Virus record (IMG/VR): IMGVR_UViG_2671180854_000003
Coordinates: 1-8,663 of that record
DNA: 8,663 nt
Reading direction: 5' to 3' (one strand)
From: a virus
Lineage: Duplodnaviria > Heunggongvirae > Uroviricota > Caudoviricetes
Positions 1 to 8,663 of this stretch are shown here, piece by piece. Every line of letters begins with the position of its first letter. Position 1 is the first letter of the stretch. Both the position numbers and the translations under genes were made by a program. Under the pieces are notes generated by a model. It worked only from the letters and a program-made list of their open reading frames with translations. It did not search any database and was not told the origin of the DNA.

Positions 1-411
1 ATGCCTGCCCCCGTCGTCCTGATCCTTGCGGCCGGGCGTGGAGAGCGCTTTCTCGCCTCCGGGGGAAATACCCATAAGTGTATCGGCTGGCGTCAGTCCC
101 CGGAGGTTGCGCCTTATCGCTGGCCATTTGAAGAAAACGGGAGAACTTTCGACCTTGCGATTGAACCGCAGATTACGACTAATGATCTGCGTCTGATGTT
201 GAGGCTGGCTCTTGCCGGCGGAGGAATAACAATTGCCACTCAGGAAACTTTCAGGCCATATATTGAAAGCGGTAAGCTTGTATCGCTGCTTGATGACTTT
301 CTTCCACAATTTCCGGGCTTCTATCTGTATTTCCCACAGCGTCGCAATATTGCACCAAAGCTCCGCGCCCTGATTGACTACGTCAAAGAATGGCGGCAGC
401 AATTGGCTTAA
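1..411 (+). CDS. yagP: LysR-family transcriptional regulator, C-terminal effector-binding portion only (136 aa; no N-terminal HTH in window); probably a truncated gene or pseudogene
   Basis: ORF at window edge; C-terminal tail ...IAPKLRALIDYVKEW is typical of LysR-family regulators; size and position beside a tRNA-Thr fragment match my memory of the yagP locus in E. coli K-12 (not verified). Confidence 0.55.
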   Translation: MPAPVVLILAAGRGERFLASGGNTHKCIGWRQSPEVAPYRWPFEENGRTFDLAIEPQITTNDLRLMLRLALAGGGITIATQETFRPYIESGKLVSLLDDFLPQFPGFYLYFPQRRNIAPKLRALIDYVKEWRQQLA

Positions 412-537
412 ATGTCTGCACCTGCACTGCCTGATGTCAGAACAGTATTTTGATGAATTGCCAAGGTTACAATGGCACAAATACGGCACAGGAGGAAACG
501 TGGTGTATTTAAATATGGGGTAACTCTTTGATTTTAA

Positions 538-583
538 TGATGCCGATAATAGGAGTCGAACCTACGACCTTCGCATTACGAAT
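538..583 (-). pseudogene. Partial tRNA-Thr(CGU) copy: anticodon loop through acceptor 3' end, no 5' half; integration-site (att) remnant of a thrW-targeting element
   Basis: Reverse complement of 541-583 reads AATTCGTAATGCGAAGGTCGTAGGTTCGACTCCTATTATCGGCA, which matches the 3' half of E. coli tRNA-Thr(CGU) as I remember it (anticodon CGT, T-loop GGTTCGACTCC); sequence diverges completely beyond 584; the CCA end reads TCA (one mismatch). Confidence 0.75.
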
Positions 584-1023
584 TATAAGAATCCGATTCT
601 AATTCAAAGCATTACCCCATCAACACTGCGCTCACACGTCCCGCCACATCAAAACATGTAAAGCCTTGCAAGCCATTGCGAGGCCTTATGTGTCTCAGTT
701 TTGTCCCACCTTGTATTACGACTTGCATAGCCAATGAAGATAAATGTGACGACAAACGGCGCAGCAGTCTTCTTTTCTTTCATACTTTCCCACACCCGGC
801 TTGCATACCTTTCTGCCATAACTATAGTGAATGTCTGTTATGAGAGAGAGACGGAAGTCCCCCACTTTATAAGTCAGTTAATGGAGAAATTACTAGCAGA
901 CGGTGTACTTGGAACAAGTTAATGGATTATAATGATAAATTAAGCATCGTTATGATTTGAAATACTTAATTATGCTAATATTGATGGAAGCAATGAATTT
1001 TAAGACATGCATAGAGTTATAAA

Positions 1024-3834
1024 ATGATAAATTTAAATCCACTTTCTTTTTCTGAATATGACTTGAACGAAATATTGAATGCCAGTCAAGATAATAAGTT
1101 AGTTCTTTTTATTGGTGCTGGTTTTTCTAAATTCAGCGAAACGGAATTAATAAAAATACCAACCTGGAGGGAGTTAATAAATGAGCTAAAAGACGACTTA
1201 GGATTGTCTGAAGAAAATGATTATTTAAAAATAGCCCAACTTTACTTTCTTCAATACGGACAAAACTCTTATGTTAAAAAAGTCAAATCAATAATTAGAG
1301 ATTTGAAACCAAGTTTTTTTCATAAGATGCTATTTGAATTAAACCCCCACTATATAATTACAACCAACTGGGATAGTTTGCTTGAAAAAACTGCACAAGA
1401 CATAGGATTGGCTTATGATTTAGTTAGTTCTGACGTGGACCTGGCACAAAGTCATTTGGACAAGAAAATTATAAAGATGCATGGGGATTTTCGACAGAAT
1501 AATTTTGTTTTTAAAGAGGATGATTACTTACAGTACAGCCAAAATTTTCCACTTATCGAAAATTTTATAAAAGGAATATTCTCAACAAACACTGTTGTGT
1601 TTTTAGGATACTCTTATAGTGATTATGATTTAAAACAGATTGTTTCATGGGTTACAACTATATCAAAAGCAACACCAAGAAAATATTTGCTCCAGAAAAA
1701 TCATGATGCAGCCCAGGCTCTTTACTTAAGAAATCATGGGATATCCTTGTTGACACCGATGAATACTGACATTAGCTATCATGATCTTTATTCAAAATTT
1801 TTCAGTGATTTCAAGCTTGTTAAAAACCAAGATGAGTTTATAAAGAGGACCCTGATCTATACTGAGTCAAAGGTAAAAAAAATAGAAGATGACCTGAGAA
1901 TGTCTGATTTTGATAAAAATAAATTGAAGAATGATATTCAATGTATTGTAACAAAAAAAATAAATAAATATGTTGATAGCAAACTAAAAGCATTAACACA
2001 ATACAAAGTATTGCTCCCTGAGCAGATCAGTAAAAAATTAACTAATAGTACCATTGATTATGATAAGTCTGGGGTTAAACTAACCTCCCACAATAATATT
2101 TTGACGACTGATTATGACGAGTATAGCAGGAAAATAAATAGCATATACCTTAATGACATTTTGAGTAAAAATACTCACTTAAAAAAGACATTCTCATCTA
2201 TTTTGGAAAAGGCATTTATAAATACAGTTAGTTATGACTCGAAACTGTATGAGGTGATTAGTTCTTCAGAATTAGAGTCTGAGCTATACAATAAGATTTC
2301 TTTCGCTTATTCAAAGGATAATGCTGAAATACTTCTTATTAACAAGGAATATGGCAAACTTCTCGATATTCTTATTTCGAAAGTAAAGCTTCATCTTAAT
2401 GAGAGAAACTATATTCTCGCCACCATTCACATGTCTAATTTTGATTATGCTTACAGGATGTTGAAGTCGGATTTACACTGTAACGGTAAGGACATTGATG
2501 AAGATTGTAAATCAATAATGGAAAGCCATACTCCATTTGAGTTTAAAAGTAAAACAATTGATTTTCCACGGGGGGTGCAAAGTGAGCTACAAGAATTAGT
2601 AAAGATGCTTGAATTTAATGAAATATACAAAGCTTACTATCGATTTGACGTTGAATCGAAGAAGAATTTAGGGTACTCACAAATAAGAAAGAGTGGTGGA
2701 ATAGCATTTTCCAATGATGAATTTAAAACAAGAGCGAAACTGTACCCTTATGTGTATTTCATTTTAGGCAACGAAATTTTAATTGAAGAATATAAAGAGG
2801 TTAAACAATTTTTCGAATTTAATATTCTTAGTAGCCTCGAACACTATCTATGCGAAGAGATATTCTATGTTAATAGAATCGATCTATTTATGTTAATAAA
2901 ATACTGCGAGACAGAAAAACTCAAAAAATTTTTAAGTAAGGTAATAAAAGACAAAATAATAATCAGCACCAGCAAACTTGACAAAAGAGAAGTTCACCAT
3001 ATTAAGAAATATTTACTCAACTCTCTCGAAAACATATGCAACCTGATTAGGTTGAAAAATAAAAATTTTATTCATACCACTTCAATAGATCGATGGACCA
3101 ATAATTTATTGATTATATTAGGATGTGTTCCGTGGAGTTCAAACCAGTTAAAGAAAATAATAAATGGTTTGCTTCCTTTGTTAGAAGGCAGAACTAATAA
3201 CATAAATATTTATGAAAACATACATAATCTTCTAGCTGTGAATGAGTTTTTGTATCAAAAATCCCATGATGATATGTTAAAAATCCTGGATGTAATACTT
3301 ATAAAAATCAATACAGGAGAGTTAAATGGTTATGACCAGCATGTAATTAACTCCAATATCTTACGAAACATTTACATATTATCAGAGAATCATAATTACG
3401 AATACAAAAACACTGAACTATTAACATTAGCGTTAACAAAAATACAATTATTTGATGATAAGTGGAAAAGATCCATCACTAAGAGTTTATTATTGAACAT
3501 CAAAAGGATTGGCTCTCCTGAGGTCGTTGACATTATAGACAAGTTTATTAACAGTAATATTTTAAACCTACCACTGGCAACAGTAAGCGATATTATGGAA
3601 TGTTTGCATTTAGTCGCAAGCGGATGTGCCATGCCTGATCAATTTCTTGAGGTTATTAACAAATTTGTTTCTGAAAACATCCCGAATAAATTAGGCGAGT
3701 TAGATTTCATTACAGCTGGTGTAGAAAGTGATTTTCCTAACTTAATTAAAAGCCTTATAAAGGATAGAGGCTTTGTTGAATTTCAAGACACATTGGACAT
3801 ATTCAATGAACGAATGCAATCTCTAAAAAAATAA
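1024..3834 (+). CDS. SIR2-like (sirtuin/NADase-type) domain protein, 936 aa: N-terminal SIR2_2-like domain (~aa 1-300) plus ~630-aa C-terminal region of unknown function; candidate single-gene anti-phage defence protein (DSR-like architecture)
   Basis: Long uninterrupted ORF; N-terminal motifs LVLFIGAGFS (aa 26-35), ITTNWD (Asn115, nt 1366-1368), KMHGD (His153, nt 1480-1482), VVFLGYSYSD match the layout of SIR2-type NAD-binding/catalytic motifs in ThsA/DSR-type defence proteins; no Walker A P-loop seen; gene is far more AT-rich (~25-33% GC on sampled lines) than flanks (~50-55%). Confidence 0.8.
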   Translation: MINLNPLSFSEYDLNEILNASQDNKLVLFIGAGFSKFSETELIKIPTWRELINELKDDLGLSEENDYLKIAQLYFLQYGQNSYVKKVKSIIRDLKPSFFHKMLFELNPHYIITTNWDSLLEKTAQDIGLAYDLVSSDVDLAQSHLDKKIIKMHGDFRQNNFVFKEDDYLQYSQNFPLIENFIKGIFSTNTVVFLGYSYSDYDLKQIVSWVTTISKATPRKYLLQKNHDAAQALYLRNHGISLLTPMNTDISYHDLYSKFFSDFKLVKNQDEFIKRTLIYTESKVKKIEDDLRMSDFDKNKLKNDIQCIVTKKINKYVDSKLKALTQYKVLLPEQISKKLTNSTIDYDKSGVKLTSHNNILTTDYDEYSRKINSIYLNDILSKNTHLKKTFSSILEKAFINTVSYDSKLYEVISSSELESELYNKISFAYSKDNAEILLINKEYGKLLDILISKVKLHLNERNYILATIHMSNFDYAYRMLKSDLHCNGKDIDEDCKSIMESHTPFEFKSKTIDFPRGVQSELQELVKMLEFNEIYKAYYRFDVESKKNLGYSQIRKSGGIAFSNDEFKTRAKLYPYVYFILGNEILIEEYKEVKQFFEFNILSSLEHYLCEEIFYVNRIDLFMLIKYCETEKLKKFLSKVIKDKIIISTSKLDKREVHHIKKYLLNSLENICNLIRLKNKNFIHTTSIDRWTNNLLIILGCVPWSSNQLKKIINGLLPLLEGRTNNINIYENIHNLLAVNEFLYQKSHDDMLKILDVILIKINTGELNGYDQHVINSNILRNIYILSENHNYEYKNTELLTLALTKIQLFDDKWKRSITKSLLLNIKRIGSPEVVDIIDKFINSNILNLPLATVSDIMECLHLVASGCAMPDQFLEVINKFVSENIPNKLGELDFITAGVESDFPNLIKSLIKDRGFVEFQDTLDIFNERMQSLKK

Positions 3835-3845
3835 AGCCACTGAGA

Positions 3846-3892
3846 TAGGGCTGCTCTCTGTCAATTACCGCTCTTGGCACATAGCAGCCCTA
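3846..3892. repeat. Perfect 10-bp inverted repeat (TAGGGCTGCT ... AGCAGCCCTA) with 27-nt spacer, in the gap between the convergent SIR2 gene and pin
   Basis: Read directly: 3846-3855 is the reverse complement of 3883-3892. Confidence 0.6.
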
Positions 3893-4054
3893 GAAATGGT
3901 GACGTATAGTCATAGATGGTCGGTGACAGGAGATGCAAATCATCTCATACAAAAATACGTAAAATCAATAACGGCTAGAAATTATTCAACACTCGCACTA
4001 TCGACATTTCACCAGCTAACCGTAGCACGTTCTTGCATACGACGTGCTACGGTT

Positions 4055-4609
4055 TCATTTATCTCCAACCGGAAACTTCTTATACAGTGTCGATATACCA
4101 ACATCATAGATGATCGCCACCTTCTGGCGAGGAACGCCTGATGCAATTAATCGCCCGGCCTGCGCCCATTGTTCTGGTGTAAGTTTGGGACGACGTCCCC
4201 CAATTCGTCCCTGTGCGCGAGCAGCTTCCAGTCCAGCTTTTGTTCGTTCAACAATCAGTTCTCGTTCCATTTCAGCCAGGGCACCCATCACATGAAAGAA
4301 AAAACGCCCCATCGGTGTGCTGGTATCAATAGCATCCGTCAGGCTGCGAAAATTAACGCCACGTTCGCGCAACTCCTCAACCAGAATGACCAGATGCCGC
4401 ATACTACGCCCCAGCCGATCCAGTTTCCAGACCACCAGAGTGTCACCTGCCGATAATGTCCTGAGCAGTTTTTTCAGTCCCGGTCTTTCGGACTTCGTAC
4501 CGCTTATCTTGTCTTCAAAAATCAGTTCACATCCTACACAGTTCAACGCATTACGTTGTAGATCGGTGTTCTGGTCATTTGTTGATACGCGAACATAGCC
4601 AATAAGCAT
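4055..4609 (-). CDS. pin: Serine-recombinase DNA invertase, Pin/Gin/Hin/Cin family (184 aa from ATG at 4609)
   Basis: Translation MLIGYVRVSTNDQNTDLQRNAL...VVWKLDRLGRSM...GRIGGRRPKL is near-identical in pattern to Pin/Gin invertases (catalytic Ser in YVRVST motif, C-terminal HTH); the ORF-track start at 4645 adds a 12-aa extension that homologues lack. Confidence 0.9.
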   Translation of the reverse strand: MLIGYVRVSTNDQNTDLQRNALNCVGCELIFEDKISGTKSERPGLKKLLRTLSAGDTLVVWKLDRLGRSMRHLVILVEELRERGVNFRSLTDAIDTSTPMGRFFFHVMGALAEMERELIVERTKAGLEAARAQGRIGGRRPKLTPEQWAQAGRLIASGVPRQKVAIIYDVGISTLYKKFPVGDK

Positions 4610-4635
4610 GGTAGATCCCCCAGGTAAAAGCAGGA

Positions 4636-4971
4636 ATGATGCCATTTGCTCGTTATTTCTGCATTTTCATAAACCTTGGTTTTGGAGAAGGTGCTAACTG
4701 GGTTATGTTACCTGGAGGAATGATAATTCAGCGTGTTTATCTTGGATTTCCTGTCGGCACCAATGTAAGACACATAACTTTCCCCCGGTCGTTTACAACA
4801 ACGAACTATTCCATCTCAATTAACTGGAATGATATCGGTACTGTAACAACTGAAACACAATCGCCAGCAAATGTGGCGGTTGTTCATCAAACAAAATCAT
4901 TAACAGGGGCCAGCATCTGGCAGGCAGGTCCCGGGGGATTTAATGTGGACATTATAGCGGTGGGGTATTGA
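4636..4971 (+). CDS. Alternative tail-fibre C-terminal cassette (Sv'-type), currently in the silent orientation; would be fused to the constant stf 5' part after inversion
   Basis: ORF encodes NLGFGEGA across the crossover site, mirroring ENLGLGEGA at the second site inside stf; followed directly by a tfa gene; the ATG at 4636 lies outside the invertible segment and is probably not a real start. Confidence 0.5.
   Translation: MMPFARYFCIFINLGFGEGANWVMLPGGMIIQRVYLGFPVGTNVRHITFPRSFTTTNYSISINWNDIGTVTTETQSPANVAVVHQTKSLTGASIWQAGPGGFNVDIIAVGY
4664..4689. other. Invertase crossover site (gix/hix-like), invertase-proximal: TTTTCATAAACCTTGGTTTTGGAGAA
   Basis: Quasi-palindromic 26-mer with AAACC-NN-GGTTT core resembling Hin/Gin recombination sites; lies ~55 bp upstream of the pin start. 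Confidence 0.7.
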
Positions 4972-4972
4972 T

Positions 4973-5401
4973 ATGTACGTATGGAGCGCTAAAGCAAATG
5001 GCTTTTTCCCCATATCGGAGAAAGAAAAATTTGAGGCATCAGGTCTGTGGCCTGATGATGGTGTAATAGTCAGTGAGGAAGAACATAAGAAGTTATTTAT
5101 GGATATTCCACCAGGAAAACAGATTGGAACACTGAATGGAAAACCAGCACTGATAGATATTCCTCAGCCGACCAAAAAGGAATTAATAGCTATTGCTGAA
5201 GTTAAAAAATCCCAATTACGGGAAAAAGCTGACAGTGAAATATCCTGGCGTCAGGATGCTGTTGATGCTGATATCGCAACTGATGAAGAAGCTACAACTC
5301 TCACCCAATGGAAGAAATACCGTGTGCTGCTGATGCGTGTTGATACGTCAACAGCACCCGATATTGAATGGCCTACGCCTCCGGCAGTTCAGGCCAGATG
5401 A
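4973..5401 (+). CDS. Tail fibre assembly protein (Tfa/Mu U-like), partner of the alternative cassette
   Basis: 142-aa ORF with C-terminal motif KKYRVLLMRVDTSTAPDIEWPTPP typical of phage tail-fibre assembly chaperones. Confidence 0.8.
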   Translation: MYVWSAKANGFFPISEKEKFEASGLWPDDGVIVSEEEHKKLFMDIPPGKQIGTLNGKPALIDIPQPTKKELIAIAEVKKSQLREKADSEISWRQDAVDADIATDEEATTLTQWKKYRVLLMRVDTSTAPDIEWPTPPAVQAR

Positions 5402-5966
5402 TATCCGGCGCGGTGCTGGTATCTGTTGCCGTCACCGCGTCAATGTAATCCAGCACGGCGTTAAGTCGGGTTGTTTCTGCCTGAGTCAGTTTCCGTCCGG
5501 CCTGTAATTTCAGCTGAATCAGACTAATGGAAGCCATTGCTGCATCAATCAGTGACTGGCGCTGTGCTTCTGCCGCGTCTACTGCGGCACTGTGTTGTGC
5601 CTCAGTGTCTGTCACCCATTTCTCACCATCCCATTTATCGTATGGCGTTAACGGTGAAATCGTGACATAACCGTCTTTGATGGCACCGATATAATCCACT
5701 GTAACAGCTGCGCCATTTTCGATTGAGTAAACAGTCTCATTGCGATGGTCTTCTTCATGGCGCCATCCCTTACCTGTAAATACTGCCACTCTTCCCGGAA
5801 TGTTTTCGCCAGGGTCAATACCAGTGGAACAGGCGGGCATACTTACGCCAGTATTAATATATTCATCAGACCAGCCCGTATACTCAGATGTTTCAGCATC
5901 ATAATAAAAACAACGCATATCGCCCGGCACTGTAGCCAGCCCATTTTCATCAAAAACAGGTTTCAT
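5373..5966 (-). CDS. Tail fibre assembly protein (Tfa/Mu U-like), partner of the currently expressed tail-fibre variant
   Basis: 197-aa ORF with C-terminal motif DTSTAPDIIWPELPEA; start overlaps stf stop (TAATG at 5964-5968). Confidence 0.85.
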   Translation of the reverse strand: MKPVFDENGLATVPGDMRCFYYDAETSEYTGWSDEYINTGVSMPACSTGIDPGENIPGRVAVFTGKGWRHEEDHRNETVYSIENGAAVTVDYIGAIKDGYVTISPLTPYDKWDGEKWVTDTEAQHSAAVDAAEAQRQSLIDAAMASISLIQLKLQAGRKLTQAETTRLNAVLDYIDAVTATDTSTAPDIIWPELPEA

Positions 5967-6712
5967 TATTTAGCCCTCACCAGAAAGTTAAATGCAATAT
6001 TTCGCGGTCTGACAGCAACAAAATTCACACCATCACCCACAGAGTTACTGGTGAAATTAAATCGTGAAAATCCTGGCTGATTTCCGGCGATGCCATCATG
6101 AAAGTTAATTGCGTGTCCCGCACCTTCGCCTATATTCCCGGCAAACTGAGAAAAGTTTGTAGCTGCCTGCCAGCTTAATAATTCGCGACCACCGTCTGCA
6201 CCTCGCCCGTCATCCCAGATACGAATGAAATCACCGCGGGCTTCAGGTAATACCAGCGAAGGAAACACTTTCGCCAGCACAGGATAATCAGTGGCAGAGA
6301 ATTTCGCGCCGTTGAACTTCAAAAACACCATACTGGACCAGCTGTCGATTACAGTATTTGGCATTGCAGCGGACGGCCAGAAGAACGGAACGCCAATAGC
6401 TGGAGCACCTTCTCCCAAACCAAGGTTTTCGAGAGCTGTTTTCACCGTGCCATCCGATTTGATATCGCCAAACGGATTCTTGCGGCTTAACAGCAGCGCA
6501 CGAAGCGCGGTAAGCAGCTGGTCGTGCCTCTCCTTCTCCAGGCTGGCACCGGATGCCTCCACCACGCTACAAAGCTCTTCCTGCAACATGTCAAAGTAGT
6601 CATCATCCAGATCGGTGGCAGGCGTGCCGGTCTGGGGGTTGCCACGGGTAAAACCGTTCTTACCCGCGCCGAACTTATCCTTCTGCGCGGTTTTCGTGTC
6701 TATGCGATGCAT
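5966..6712 (-). CDS. Short side tail fibre protein (248 aa): constant N-terminal part (outside the invertible segment) fused to variable C-terminal part (inside it)
   Basis: N-terminus [20 protein letters not shown]... and glycine-rich body typical of e14/Mu-type tail fibres; crossover site lies inside the ORF at aa ~93-101; followed by a translationally coupled tfa. Confidence 0.85.
6410..6435. other. Invertase crossover site (gix/hix-like), distal, inside stf: TTCTCCCAAACCAAGGTTTTCGAGAG
   Basis: Its reverse complement matches the 4664-4689 site at 21 of 26 positions; central dinucleotide AA versus TT shows the two sites are in inverted orientation. Confidence 0.7.
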
Positions 6713-6715
6713 GGA

Positions 6716-7300
6716 TTACTCCGGATATTTAAAAATTACGTAGGTATGAGACGGACAGAGTTTGTTAAGCACACATTCGACAACGGTATCGCCCCAGATA
6801 CGCAGTGCGGAATCACAGGGATCGCCACATGTCATCCAGGTGGTGTTTGTGGCGGCTGGCATGTTGACCTGCCAGTAATACCGCCATTCCGGCGCATTCA
6901 CCGCGTCAGTACAGGCCGATGAGCAGGTGAACGTGCTTTTGTCGTATCGCGTGATGGTAGCGTCTGGTCTGCCCAGGGCAGCAAGCTGTGCAAGATAAAA
7001 ATTCTCGTTGATGCCGCCCGCCAGGTTAACCTTCGCATCCAGCCGTTGCTGACGCTGGCGAAGGGTCTGTGTCCCTGCGGGAATACATTCATCCGGCAGA
7101 CCGCACAGACGCTCCCAGCGGTTTATCAGTTCGGTGGTGGTGCGCGGATCCAGCTCCCGCATCAGGGCATCCGCACGCTGATGAACGCGGGTTAATGACG
7201 GTGCCGCACCGGCAATCGACGGATCGCTGGCTGACCACGCCGGACCGGGGGGCAACAGTGCCGACAACAGACGGATGTAATCATCGTTTGTCACGTCCAT
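6716..7300 (-). CDS. ymfQ: Phage tail/baseplate protein, YmfQ/DUF2313 family (Mu gp48 / P2 gpI-like position), 194 aa
   Basis: 194-aa ORF immediately upstream of stf with a 3-nt gap (translational coupling); sequence beginning [22 protein letters not shown] recalls the e14 YmfQ family (from memory). Confidence 0.7.
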
Positions 7301-7449
7301 GAAATCGTCCCCAGTACCGCCAGTTCATTTTTTGCAATGGAGATATTGTCTGCCGGTGCAAGCAACTGATGGCTGTATTCCCCGTTCGCACCGGAAATCG
7401 CCTCACTGATACGCGATACCTTCAGTTCTCCCTGCGGATATGGGCAGCT
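7291..7449 (-). pseudogene. Probable 3' remnant (~52 codons) of a baseplate-J-like tail gene, truncated at its 5' side
   Basis: Open frame on the minus strand from the Rz stop down to a TGA at 7291-7293 that overlaps the ymfQ start by 8 nt (typical tail-operon overlap); no start codon or 5' part present; identity as J-like is inferred from gene order only. Confidence 0.3.
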
Positions 7450-7911
7450 CTATCTGCACTGCTCATTAATATACTTCTGGGTTCCTTCCAGTTGTTTTTG
7501 CATAGTGATCAGCCTCTCTCTGAGGGTGAAATAATCCCGTTCAGCGGTGTCTGCCAGTCGGGGGGAGGCTGCATTATCCACGCCGGAGGCGGTGGTGGCT
7601 TCACGCACTGACTGACAGACTGCTTTGATGTGCAACCGACGACGACCAGCGGCAACATCATCACGCAGAGCATCATTTTCAGCTTTCGCATCAGCTAACT
7701 CCTTCGTGTATTTTGCATCGAGCGCAGCAACATCACGCTGACGCATCTGCATGTCAGTAATTGCCGCGTTCGCCAGCTTCAGTTCTTTGGCATTTTTGTC
7801 GCGCTGGGCTTTATAGGTAATGGCGTTATCACGGTAATGATTAACAGCCCATGACAGGCAGACGATGATGCAGATAACCAGAGCGGAGATAATCGCGGTT
7901 ACTCTGTTCAT
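7450..7911 (-). CDS. Rz: Rz-type i-spanin (153 aa from ATG at 7911)
   Basis: Translation [41 protein letters not shown]... closely matches lambda Rz as I recall it; start overlaps the endolysin stop (ATGA). Confidence 0.9.
7509..7691 (-). CDS. Rz1: Rz1-type o-spanin lipoprotein (60 aa), embedded in the +1 frame inside Rz
   Basis: Translation [26 protein letters not shown]...PPPPPAW... with lipobox (VVGC) and proline-rich region, as in lambda Rz1. Confidence 0.85.
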
Positions 7912-8405
7912 TGCTGACCCCACAAACAGATTTCACGCTCAATCTCACGACGAGTCATGAGACCTTTCCATTGCTTACCGCCAGCATATGTCCAGCGACG
8001 TAACTGATCACATGCGCCTTTGATATCGCCCTGGTTTATTTTGCGAAGAAGCGTCGATGTTCTGAAATTGCCAGCACCCACGTTGTAAACGAATGAGTAA
8101 AGAGCGCCGCGCGTTGTTTCCGGTATATCGACTTCGATGTATGGGTTAATTTGTCTGGCGACAGTGGCAAGGTCTTTATTCAAGAGTGCTTTGCATTCTG
8201 CTTTGGTATACGTTTTACCGAGCATGATGTCTTTTCCTGTATGCCCGTGACATACGGTCCATACACCAACAATATCTTTGTATGGTATGTAGCTGACACC
8301 TTCCAGACCATCGTTACCACTTGGGCCAGTGATTAACACTGATGCTATAGCAATTGCTCCGCCACCAATAGCAGCAGCAACGGCTTTTCGTAATGATGGA
8401 GGCAT
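7908..8405 (-). CDS. SAR-type endolysin (phage lysozyme, P21 R / DLP12 RrrD-like), 165 aa
   Basis: N-terminal signal-anchor-release segment [30 protein letters not shown] followed by lysozyme body; near-identical to P21-type endolysins from memory; start overlaps holin stop (TAATG). Confidence 0.9.
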
Positions 8406-8540
8406 TATTCACCTCTCGCAGCCTTGCGCTTATCTTCTTTAATCTTGAAATAAAGGTTTGTCAGGTACGTCAGCAGGCCAAATACCAGGCTACCCAGCAC
8501 ACCTATTGCTGCCCACTGTGAGGGCGTGACTTTATCGAGC
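8405..8540 (-). pseudogene. Pinholin (S21/EssD-like) 3' remnant; N-terminal ~25 codons replaced by an IS insertion
   Basis: Minus-strand translation ...[44 protein letters not shown] matches the C-terminal two-thirds of P21-type pinholins; similarity ends abruptly at ~8540 where an IS terminal sequence begins. Confidence 0.75.
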
Positions 8541-8663
8541 TGAACCGCCCCGGGAATCCTGGAGACTAAACTTCCTGAGAAAGAGGTAAACAGGATGACT
8601 AAAAATACTCGTTTTTCCCCCGAAGTCCGTCAACGGGCAGTCCGTATGGTTCTGGAAAGTCAG
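8541..8663 (+). mobile_element. Left end of an IS3-family insertion sequence (IS629/IS1203-like), continuing beyond the window
   Basis: Terminal sequence TGAACCGCCCCGGG... starts exactly where holin similarity stops; transposase OrfA start follows 54 bp downstream. Confidence 0.7.
8595..8663 (+). CDS. IS3-family transposase OrfA, N-terminal 23 codons (partial, runs off window)
   Basis: Translation [23 protein letters not shown] matches the N-terminus of IS629/IS1203-type OrfA as I recall it; AGGTAAACAGG Shine-Dalgarno-like sequence upstream. Confidence 0.75.

What the first reader, a model, noticed from the sequence alone, without database searches (positions are those of the whole stretch)
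538..583. Half-tRNA-Thr(CGU) copy marks the outer junction of an element integrated at thrW
Only the 3' half of the tRNA (anticodon loop to acceptor end) is present, followed by unrelated sequence. That is the footprint left when a tyrosine-integrase element inserts into the 3' end of a tRNA gene: one complete tRNA at one junction and a partial direct repeat at the other. No integrase gene lies within this window, so the integrase is expected beside the complete thrW copy outside the window, or it has been lost.
Basis: partly seen in the sequence, partly recalled or inferred. Interest (0 to 1): 0.45.

Follow-up and report, generated by a model that had tools for sequence, protein, structure and literature searches.

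The report
Prophage attachment scar at thrW
The 46-base half copy of the threonine tRNA gene thrW is the well-known attachment-site scar at the far end of an SfV/e14-like prophage, here a decayed one, inserted into thrW of Escherichia coli; it is real but ordinary.

Summary
Window 538-583, on the minus strand, equals nucleotides 31-76 of thrW tRNA-Thr(CGU) at 45 of 46 positions; the one change turns CCA into TCA. No shuffle gives such a match, and no complete tRNA is called.

- **Core:** the 46 nt are the published att core of the Shigella/E. coli phages SfI, SfII, SfV and SfX.
- **Left flank (1-537):** this is the native chromosome (paoD end, yagP). It abuts an intact thrW in 948 of 5426 complete E. 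coli genomes, which are empty sites.
- **Right flank (584-709):** this is about 94-96% identical to the SfV attP arm.

The element runs rightward from the scar. It carries a 936-aa SIR2 gene where SfV carries gtrABV, then the Pin invertase, tail-fibre genes and ymfQ. An internal deletion follows at 7437-7440, then the lysis genes rzpD and rrrD and a truncated essD interrupted by an IS3-family element, where the source contig ends.

In two close relatives (UMNK88, ETEC1717) the other end carries the complete thrW next to an integrase (98% identical to SfV Int in UMNK88). The source genome's own thrW could not be inspected. The window holds no tyrosine integrase. This is already known biology and of low interest.

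The parts
1..22 (+). 3' end of paoD (chromosomal backbone)
   Evidence: paoD ends at L001 20022, which is window 22, in UMNK88. The same gene order occurs in K-12.
73..411 (+). yagP, a remnant of a LysR-family regulator (backbone gene next to the thrW insertion site)
   Evidence: Pfam LysR_substrate, E 1.4e-14. RefSeq annotates it as partial in UMNK88. Window 1-583 is 99.7% identical to K-12 yagP-side DNA.
412..537 (.). Native DNA downstream of thrW (the B' side of the junction); holds an IHF-consensus match AATCAAAGAGTTA at 521-533 (minus strand)
   Evidence: It is contiguous with the intact thrW CCA end in 948 genomes, at 100% identity in the listed hits. Positions 520-537 also resemble the phage int-side arm.
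538..583 (-). Half tRNA-Thr(CGU): thrW nucleotides 31-76, the 46-bp att core of SfV-type phages, with C75>T
   Evidence: The published core sequence is in PMC3636060.
584..709 (.). Phage arm of attP on the cargo side (P arm), with a terminator-like hairpin at 663-702 (+)
   Evidence: Window 520-705 is 94% identical to SfV in the interval between int and gtrA. Window 536-709 is 96% identical to another thrW prophage that carries different cargo (L010).
710..4017 (+). Variable cargo slot; here it holds one gene, a 936-aa SIR2_2 protein (1024-3834)
   Evidence: The anchor boundaries come from blastn against L010. Domain evidence: Pfam SIR2_2, PADLOC ThsA-type SIR2, and the DSR2 SIR2 domain in PDB at E 6.6e-35. 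The same slot holds gtrABV in SfV, mcrA in e14, and AraC plus GIY-YIG in Z1323HEC0423.
4055..4645 (-). Pin-type serine DNA invertase (not the integrase)
   Evidence: Pfam Resolvase plus HTH_7. It is annotated pinE in UMNK88 and is 91% identical in DNA to e14 pinE.
4636..6712 (.). Tail-fibre C-terminal segments and tail-fibre assembly genes in opposed orientation (the Pin-invertible host-range module) plus the tail-fibre gene 5966-6712
   Evidence: Pfam Gp53-like_C and Caudo_TAP twice. The layout matches UMNK88 and e14 stfP-tfaP-tfaE-stfE-pinE.
6716..7440 (-). ymfQ (Mu gp48-like baseplate wedge, 6716-7300) and the last ~150 nt of the baseplate J/gp47 gene (7291-7440)
   Evidence: Pfam Phage_Mu_Gp48. 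Identity is 96-98% to UMNK88, SfV and e14, and ends at 7440 in all three.
7437..7440 (.). Internal deletion or recombination junction with 4 nt shared by both sides; about 18 kb of head and tail genes are missing relative to UMNK88
   Evidence: UMNK88 homology ends at 7440, and lysis-cassette homology (O145 L005) starts at 7437. UMNK88 has baseplate-to-terminase genes between these points. No complete genome spans the junction.
7450..8540 (-). Lambdoid lysis genes: Rz endopeptidase rzpD (7450-7923), lysozyme rrrD (7908-8405), and the 3' fragment of the holin essD (8405-~8540)
   Evidence: Pfam Phage_lysis and Phage_lysozyme. Annotations come from a 99.1% identical O145:H28 prophage.
8541..8663 (+). 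Left end of an IS3-family insertion sequence (IS629-like from my recollection of its terminal repeat) interrupting essD; the source contig ends here
   Evidence: It is annotated 'IS3 family transposase' under the 99.2% match in O145:H28. Window 8663 is the end of contig CXZD01000007.1.

Best explanation
Window 538-583 is the integrase-distal junction of an SfV/SfI-like prophage (with e14-like late genes) that integrated into the thrW tRNA-Thr(CGU) gene of an Escherichia coli chromosome. In lambda convention this junction is attR, i.e. phage arm, core, then bacterial arm.

Mechanism. The phage attP carries a 46-bp copy of thrW nucleotides 31-76. A tyrosine integrase of the SfV/P22 type recombines attP with thrW. 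After integration, the 5' part of thrW is joined to the phage-borne 3' part, giving an intact thrW next to int at one end. The original chromosomal 3' part (nt 31-76) is displaced to the other end of the prophage, where it still abuts its native downstream DNA (yagP, paoD). That displaced piece is what the window contains.

Shown here: the sequence identity, the native left flank, the phage arm on the right, and the complete thrW plus an adjacent integrase at the other end in two close relatives (SfV-type in UMNK88, where it was compared).

Inferred: strand exchange lies near the anticodon-loop end of the identity block. This rests on my recollection that P22-type integrases use the anticodon-loop sublocation. 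It also fits the sequence just beyond the tRNA 3' end (window 520-537), which is of the host type rather than the phage type.

The prophage in this genome is defective. Its head and tail genes from baseplate J to upstream of the lysis cassette are deleted, and its holin gene is interrupted by an insertion sequence. The half tRNA is therefore a fossil junction, not one end of a phage that could still form particles. The C75>T change is most simply a neutral mutation in a non-functional tRNA fragment.
For: The half copy matches thrW nt 31-76 at 45/46, unique in the window, with 0/200 shuffles matching. The 46-nt string equals the published att core of SfI/SfII/SfV/SfX (PMC3636060).

An empty site (proA-thrW-window flank) is contiguous in 948/5426 genomes, at 100% identity in the listed hits. 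Window 520-705 is 94% identical to the SfV int-attP-gtrA interval. The identical junction occurs in 483/5426 genomes, and thrW followed by an SfV-type int occurs in 1491/5426.

UMNK88 has thrW (294869-294944), int (98% identical to SfV Int), a whole prophage, SIR2, then the half copy in direct orientation about 38.7 kb away. ETEC1717 has the same junction, with integrase and thrW about 26 kb away.

The gene order att-cargo-pin-tail fibres-ymfQ-baseplate J matches SfV and e14. Only a serine invertase is present in the window, and no Phage_integrase domain. The deletion junction and the IS are documented.
Against: The source assembly (GCA_001277455.1) is a draft and the contig stops in the IS at window 8663. 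The complete thrW, the integrase and the direct-repeat relationship were therefore not observed in the source genome itself.

The exact crossover point was not determined. Excision or any other activity was not tested. The 7437-7440 junction lies in a short-read draft contig and is not seen in any complete genome, so an assembly join cannot be formally excluded. This does not affect the att junction.
Confidence: 0.95

Rival explanations
1. The half tRNA is the K-12-type thrW pseudo-copy (known as ptwF, from my own knowledge), i.e. the junction left by a CP4-6-like island that uses the IntF integrase. The phage-like DNA would then have arrived later or be unrelated to the scar.
For: K-12 has a half thrW copy at exactly this chromosomal position next to yagP. 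Window 1-583 is 99.7% identical to K-12 there.
Against: In K-12 the repeat extends further 5': the CP4-6 feature starts at thrW nt 28 and the alignment shows CGC before ATTCG. K-12's repeat is followed by intF. In the window, identity to thrW starts at nt 31, as in the 46-bp SfV-type core. The adjoining 126 nt are the SfV attP arm. IntF and the SfV-type Int show no significant BLASTP similarity.
Confidence: 0.02
2. It is an internal junction of a tandem array at thrW. A further island would lie between this half copy and the true chromosomal backbone, so it would not be the outermost junction.
For: Tandem occupation of thrW does occur. In Z1323HEC0423 the same half copy and arm are preceded by an integrase fragment and an autotransporter island instead of yagP. 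Several hits start only at window 530-537.
Against: In this window the flank 188-537 is the sequence that directly follows intact thrW in 948 unoccupied genomes. It continues into yagP-paoD-paoCBA-yagU-ecp, as in K-12 and UMNK88.
Confidence: 0.02
3. It is a chance resemblance, or a decayed independent tRNA pseudogene unrelated to integration.
For: None beyond the fact that no complete tRNA is called.
Against: It matches at 45/46 with 0/200 shuffles matching. Its boundaries coincide exactly with a published att core. An empty-site/occupied-site polymorphism exists across thousands of genomes.
Confidence: 0.005

Closest known systems
att junction of the Shigella flexneri serotype-converting phages SfV / SfI / SfII / SfX at thrW (46-bp core ATTCGTAATGCGAAGGTCGTAGGTTCGACTCCTATTATCGGCACCA; PMC3636060)
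   Same: It has the same 46-nt core (45/46) and the same host gene, thrW beside proA. It has the same phage arm next to the core (94% over window 520-705). The layout int-attP-cargo-tail fibre-baseplate is the same, and the integrase in relatives is the same type (98% to SfV Int).
   Different: The cargo next to att is a 936-aa SIR2 gene instead of the gtrABV O-antigen glucosylation genes. A Pin invertase with an invertible tail-fibre module is present, as in e14 and unlike SfV. The prophage is internally deleted and interrupted by an IS. The core carries a C75>T change.
E. coli K-12 cryptic prophage CP4-6 right junction (half thrW copy next to intF and yagP; called ptwF in K-12 databases, from my own knowledge)
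   Same: It has the same chromosomal position, the same displaced thrW 3' half and the same yagP-side flank (99.7% over window 1-583).
   Different: It is a different element with an unrelated integrase (IntF). The repeat starts about 3 nt earlier in the tRNA. In K-12 the integrase gene sits beside the half copy, whereas here it is expected beside the complete thrW.
E. coli K-12 cryptic prophage e14, right end (ymfQ-stfP-tfaP-tfaE-stfE-pinE-mcrA-attR/icdC)
   Same: It has the same module order up to the junction, 91-96% DNA identity in the pin and ymfQ/baseplate J segments, a defence-type gene between pin and the att scar, and a partial duplicate of the target gene at the junction.
   Different: e14 integrates in the protein gene icd, not in a tRNA gene. 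Its cargo is mcrA rather than SIR2.
Salmonella phage P22 attP/thrW
   Same: PMC3636060 states that the SfI core is identical to that of P22. From my own knowledge, P22 also integrates in thrW.
   Different: P22 is a podovirus with different late genes. P22 was not compared with the window here.

Membership tests
SfV/SfI-type prophage att junction at thrW | 46-bp att core identical to thrW nt 31-76 | tested here: met
   45/46 identical to thrW and to the published core.
SfV/SfI-type prophage att junction at thrW | One side of the core is the native chromosome downstream of thrW (bacterial arm) | tested here: met
   The synthetic empty site is contiguous in 948/5426 genomes, at 100% identity in the listed hits.
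SfV/SfI-type prophage att junction at thrW | The other side of the core is the attP arm of the phage | tested here: met
   Window 584-705 aligns to the SfV int-gtrA interval; 94% over 520-705.
SfV/SfI-type prophage att junction at thrW | Complete thrW plus SfV-type tyrosine integrase at the opposite junction, with the two repeats in direct orientation | not testable with these tools
   The source contig ends at window 8663. The feature is met in the relatives UMNK88 (Int 98% identical to SfV Int) and ETEC1717 (integrase annotated, not compared with SfV Int).
SfV/SfI-type prophage att junction at thrW | Int/Xis-dependent excision regenerating attB and attP | not testable with these tools
   This needs PCR or sequencing of the strain. 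The deletion and the IS argue that the prophage cannot form particles, but they do not show whether excision is still possible.
Functional tRNA gene | Complete cloverleaf detectable by a tRNA finder | tested here: not met
   ARAGORN finds 0 genes, Rfam gives no tRNA hit at E<=1, and only nt 31-76 are present.
CP4-6 / IntF-type island junction (K-12 half thrW copy) | The repeat reaches thrW nt 28 and the element side carries intF-type DNA | tested here: not met
   The repeat starts at nt 31 and the element side is the SfV arm. IntF is unrelated to the SfV-type Int.
e14-like prophage late/right-end module | Order ymfQ - invertible tail-fibre genes - pin - cargo - att scar | tested here: met
e14-like prophage late/right-end module | Integration in icd | tested here: not met
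   The junction is in thrW, not icd.

The most novel reading that the evidence does not exclude
The att core plus the conserved 126-nt phage arm (584-709) and the pin-proximal anchor (from about 4018) may frame a cargo-exchange slot shared by SfV/e14-like prophages. In that slot O-antigen modification genes (gtrABV), restriction genes (mcrA), GIY-YIG/AraC genes and, here, a 936-aa SIR2 protein replace one another. The SIR2 protein has a DSR2-like N-terminal NADase domain, but its roughly 660-residue C-terminal part matches nothing. It could therefore be an uncharacterised single-gene anti-phage sensor. The half tRNA itself would remain an ordinary att scar.
Probability: 0.35. Interest if true: 0.3.

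Novelty: already known. Interest (0 to 1): 0.08.

Why it matters
It matters mainly for annotation. The 46-nt scar fixes the exact right-hand boundary of a prophage at thrW, between 583 and 584. It separates backbone genes (paoD, yagP) from horizontally acquired DNA. It also identifies the element family (SfV/SfI/e14-like), and therefore which integrase to look for at the other end. thrW is among the most frequently targeted tRNA genes for islands in E. coli (PMC7545054), and the same junction is present in about 9% of complete E. coli genomes, so nothing here is surprising. The only forward-looking aspect is the variable defence/serotype cargo slot directly inside the junction.

Tried and rejected
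- **Rfam and ARAGORN.** The permissive Rfam scan and ARAGORN gave no tRNA call. This fits a half copy and is not evidence against the finding.
- **Seeing past the window.** Looking up the SIR2 protein recovered the source contig, CXZD01000007.1 of GCA_001277455.1. The contig ends exactly at window 8663, inside the IS, so the source's thrW and int could not be examined. I ran no further search on fishing for the other contig, because hitting that one assembly among thousands was unlikely.
- **Literature on the crossover.** A search for the anticodon-loop crossover of P22-type integrases at thrW found nothing in the held library. That step therefore rests on my own knowledge.
- **K-12 CP4-6/IntF as the source of the scar.** Considered and rejected.
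- **Tandem-array internal junction.** Considered and rejected for this window, although it occurs in other strains.
- **C75>T blocking excision.** Considered and judged unlikely, because the change lies at the far end of the core from the inferred crossover. Not tested.
- **Small ORFs 649-819 (-) and 734-922 (+).** Neither matches any defence family. They are treated as spurious.
- **Repeats as integrase arm sites.** A repeat scan of the att region gave only short two-copy matches, apart from one 20-nt inverted repeat, which is reported under Noticed in passing.

Full report
**1. Observation**

Window 538-583, read on the minus strand, is ATTCGTAATGCGAAGGTCGTAGGTTCGACTCCTATTATCGGCATCA. Aligned with thrW of K-12 and of strain UMNK88, it covers nucleotides 31-76 of the 76-nt tRNA-Thr(CGU). 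That span runs from the last base of the 5' anticodon-stem strand, through the anticodon loop (anticodon CGT), to the acceptor end. It has one mismatch, C75>T, so ACCA becomes ATCA.

A search allowing 3 mismatches finds this one site only, and none of 200 dinucleotide-preserving shuffles gives a match. ARAGORN finds no tRNA gene in the window, and a permissive Rfam scan lists no tRNA. The only additions are the strand (minus) and a weaker similarity to att sites that continues to about window 520.

**2. Which side is chromosome and which is element**

The window starts with the end of paoD (1-22) and the LysR remnant yagP (73-411), as in K-12. Window 1-583 is 99.7% identical to the K-12 DNA that borders cryptic prophage CP4-6.

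I built a hypothetical unoccupied site: K-12 proA-thrW, up to CCA, joined directly to the reverse complement of window 188-537. This 697-nt sequence occurs as one contiguous place in 948 of 5426 complete E. coli genomes, and every listed hit is 100% identical over its full length, e.g. ATCC 8739. Window 1-537 is therefore the native DNA downstream of thrW, and the inserted DNA begins at 584.

The occupied junction itself (window 420-720) is present in 483 genomes. The opposite junction type, thrW followed by an SfV-type integrase, is present in 1491 genomes.

**3. What the element is**

Window 520-705 is 94% identical to the interval between int and gtrA of Shigella phage SfV, which is its attP region. 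The 46-nt string is, apart from the one mismatch, the att core published for SfI and stated there to be identical in SfII, SfV and SfX (and P22). All of these integrate in thrW beside proA (PMC3636060).

To the right of the arm the window carries these features:
- A 936-aa SIR2_2 protein at 1024-3834.
- A Pin serine invertase at 4055-4645 (minus strand).
- Opposed tail-fibre and tail-fibre-assembly genes.
- ymfQ (Mu gp48-like) and the last 150 nt of the baseplate J gene.

This order matches SfV, with gtrABV in place of SIR2 and without pin. It also matches the right end of K-12 prophage e14: ymfQ-stfP-tfaP-tfaE-stfE-pinE-mcrA-att scar.

**4. The other end in relatives**

- **UMNK88.** This strain shares window 1-4690 at 99.4% identity. 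Its order is proA, thrW (294869-294944), integrase (294959-296077), a complete lambdoid/Mu-tailed prophage, SIR2, the half tRNA, then yagP. The half copy is in direct orientation about 38.7 kb from thrW nt 31. Its integrase is 98% identical to SfV Int. It shows no significant similarity to K-12 IntF.
- **ETEC1717.** This strain is 99.4% identical over window 1-4525. It has a scrambled prophage that ends in an annotated site-specific integrase followed by tRNA-Thr and proA, about 26 kb away.

**5. State of the element in this genome**

Homology to UMNK88, SfV and e14 stops at 7440. Homology to a lambdoid lysis cassette (rzpD, rrrD, essD fragment; 99.1% to an O145:H28 prophage) starts at 7437. 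Relative to UMNK88, about 18 kb of baseplate, tail, head and terminase genes are missing.

The holin gene essD is interrupted at 8541 by the left end of an IS3-family element, which I recognise from memory as IS629-like. The window is identical to positions 8978-17640 of contig CXZD01000007.1 (GCA_001277455.1), and that contig ends at the last base of the window.

The prophage is therefore defective. The part that would contain int and thrW lies on other contigs that I could not reach. No complete E. coli genome in the collection contains the 7437-7440 junction.

**6. Mechanism**

Established for this phage family (PMC3636060): attP, located between int and the cargo genes, recombines with attB in thrW, and the attP sequence is then split between the two prophage ends.

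Applied here, the intact thrW at the int end is a hybrid of the host 5' part and the phage-borne 3' part. The window's half copy is the displaced host 3' part, still joined to its native downstream DNA.

This fits the polymorphisms just beyond the tRNA end (window 520-537):
- They are of the host (empty-site and K-12) type, TTAAAATCAAAGAGTTACCCC.
- They are not of the phage type found in SfV attP and UMNK88 attL, TTTAAATCAATAAGTTACAC.

Strand exchange must therefore have occurred inside the 46-bp identity. I infer that it lies at the anticodon-loop end. This rests on my own knowledge of P22-type integrases; the library search for a citable source found nothing. The C75>T change is best read as a neutral mutation in a non-functional fragment.

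**7. Rivals**

- **K-12 CP4-6 scar.** K-12's half copy sits at the same position, but it belongs to CP4-6/IntF. Its repeat starts at tRNA nt 28 and it is followed by intF. The window's repeat starts at nt 31 and is followed by the SfV arm, so the scar here was made by an SfV-type element.
- **Internal junction of a tandem array.** This occurs in other strains. It is excluded here by the empty-site comparison.
- **Chance.** Excluded.

**8. Comparison with known systems, and novelty**

This is a textbook tRNA-gene att scar of a described phage family, at one of the most used integration hot spots of E. coli (PMC7545054). It is present in hundreds of sequenced genomes. It is already known, and interest is low.

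**9. Things seen in passing**

The slot between the phage arm (ending at 709) and the pin-proximal anchor (starting at about 4018) is variable. It holds:
- SIR2 here.
- gtrABV in SfV.
- mcrA in e14.
- An IS fragment plus AraC plus a GIY-YIG protein in Z1323HEC0423.
- Other products named, such as a RES-domain protein, a TrlF-like ATPase and an acyltransferase.

The SIR2 protein's first ~270 residues resemble the SIR2 NADase domain of Bacillus DSR2 (PDB 8k98, E 6.6e-35) and ThsA. It scores 67 bits against a cut-off of 1400 for the NCBIfam Dsr2 model. Its remaining ~660 residues match nothing.

A 20-nt inverted repeat (515-534 and 601-620, 17/20) brackets the half tRNA. None of 100 shuffles reached 17. 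Its left arm contains a perfect IHF consensus at 521-533.

A terminator-like hairpin at 663-702 lies in the phage arm, and the underlying sequence is conserved in SfV. In the circular phage it would lie downstream of int across attP. That position is reminiscent of lambda sib/tI, which is an inference only.

Noticed in passing
window 1024-3834 (+): A 936-aa SIR2_2 protein lies directly inside the att junction. Its N-terminal ~270 residues resemble the NADase domain of Bacillus DSR2 (PDB 8k98, E 6.6e-35) and ThsA. It falls far below the NCBIfam Dsr2 cut-off (67 vs 1400 bits), and the C-terminal ~660 residues match nothing. It is probably a single-gene anti-phage defence cargo of the prophage.
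   Followed up: partly
window 710-4017; compare L006 4123-6850, L010 6174-8898, L011 14241-15413: This is a variable cargo slot between the conserved attP arm and pin or the tail-fibre module. It holds SIR2 here, gtrABV in SfV, mcrA in e14, and an IS fragment plus AraC plus GIY-YIG in Z1323HEC0423. Other genomes list a RES-domain protein, a TrlF-like ATPase and an acyltransferase.
   Followed up: partly
window 515-534 and 601-620: A 20-nt inverted repeat (17/20 complementary) brackets the half tRNA, with one arm in host DNA and the other in the phage arm. None of 100 shuffles reached 17 (maximum 16). The host arm contains a perfect IHF consensus, AATCAAAGAGTTA (521-533, minus strand), one of 2 such matches in the window. 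Its meaning is unknown; it may be a protein-binding site of the att region.
   Followed up: partly
window 663-702 (+): A terminator-like hairpin (9-bp stem, then a T-rich tail) lies in the phage arm, in sequence conserved in SfV. In the circular phage it would lie just downstream of int across attP, and it is separated from int in the prophage. That position recalls lambda sib/tI retroregulation, which is an inference only.
   Followed up: no
window 7437-7440: This is an abrupt junction between the 3' fragment of the baseplate J gene and the DNA just downstream of rzpD, with 4 nt shared. About 18 kb of morphogenesis genes are missing relative to UMNK88. The junction is not found in any of 5426 complete E. 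coli genomes.
   Followed up: partly
window 8541-8663 (+): The left end of an IS3-family element (IS629-like by recollection) is inserted in the holin gene essD, and the source contig ends inside it. O145:H28 strains carry the same IS in essD, but the join is offset by 26 nt: window 8514-8539 has no counterpart there.
   Followed up: partly
window 3956-4077: An 87-nt segment (3956-4042) is about 83% identical to the ecpE-ykgJ intergenic region of the same chromosome. It overlaps a sub-threshold Rfam CssrB hit (4021-4077, a hairpin). It is probably a small intergenic repeat or terminator between SIR2 and pin.
   Followed up: no
window 5169-5352 (+): A sub-threshold Rfam match to IS009 (48.6 bits vs gathering score 117) lies inside a tail-fibre assembly gene. 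It is most likely sequence homology of the coding region rather than an RNA gene.
   Followed up: no
window 1-411 (+): The 136-aa yagP ORF begins with codons that overlap the end of paoD and continues into only the C-terminal half of a LysR substrate-binding domain. It is a truncated regulator shared with K-12, which shows that the backbone beside thrW has itself been eroded.
   Followed up: no
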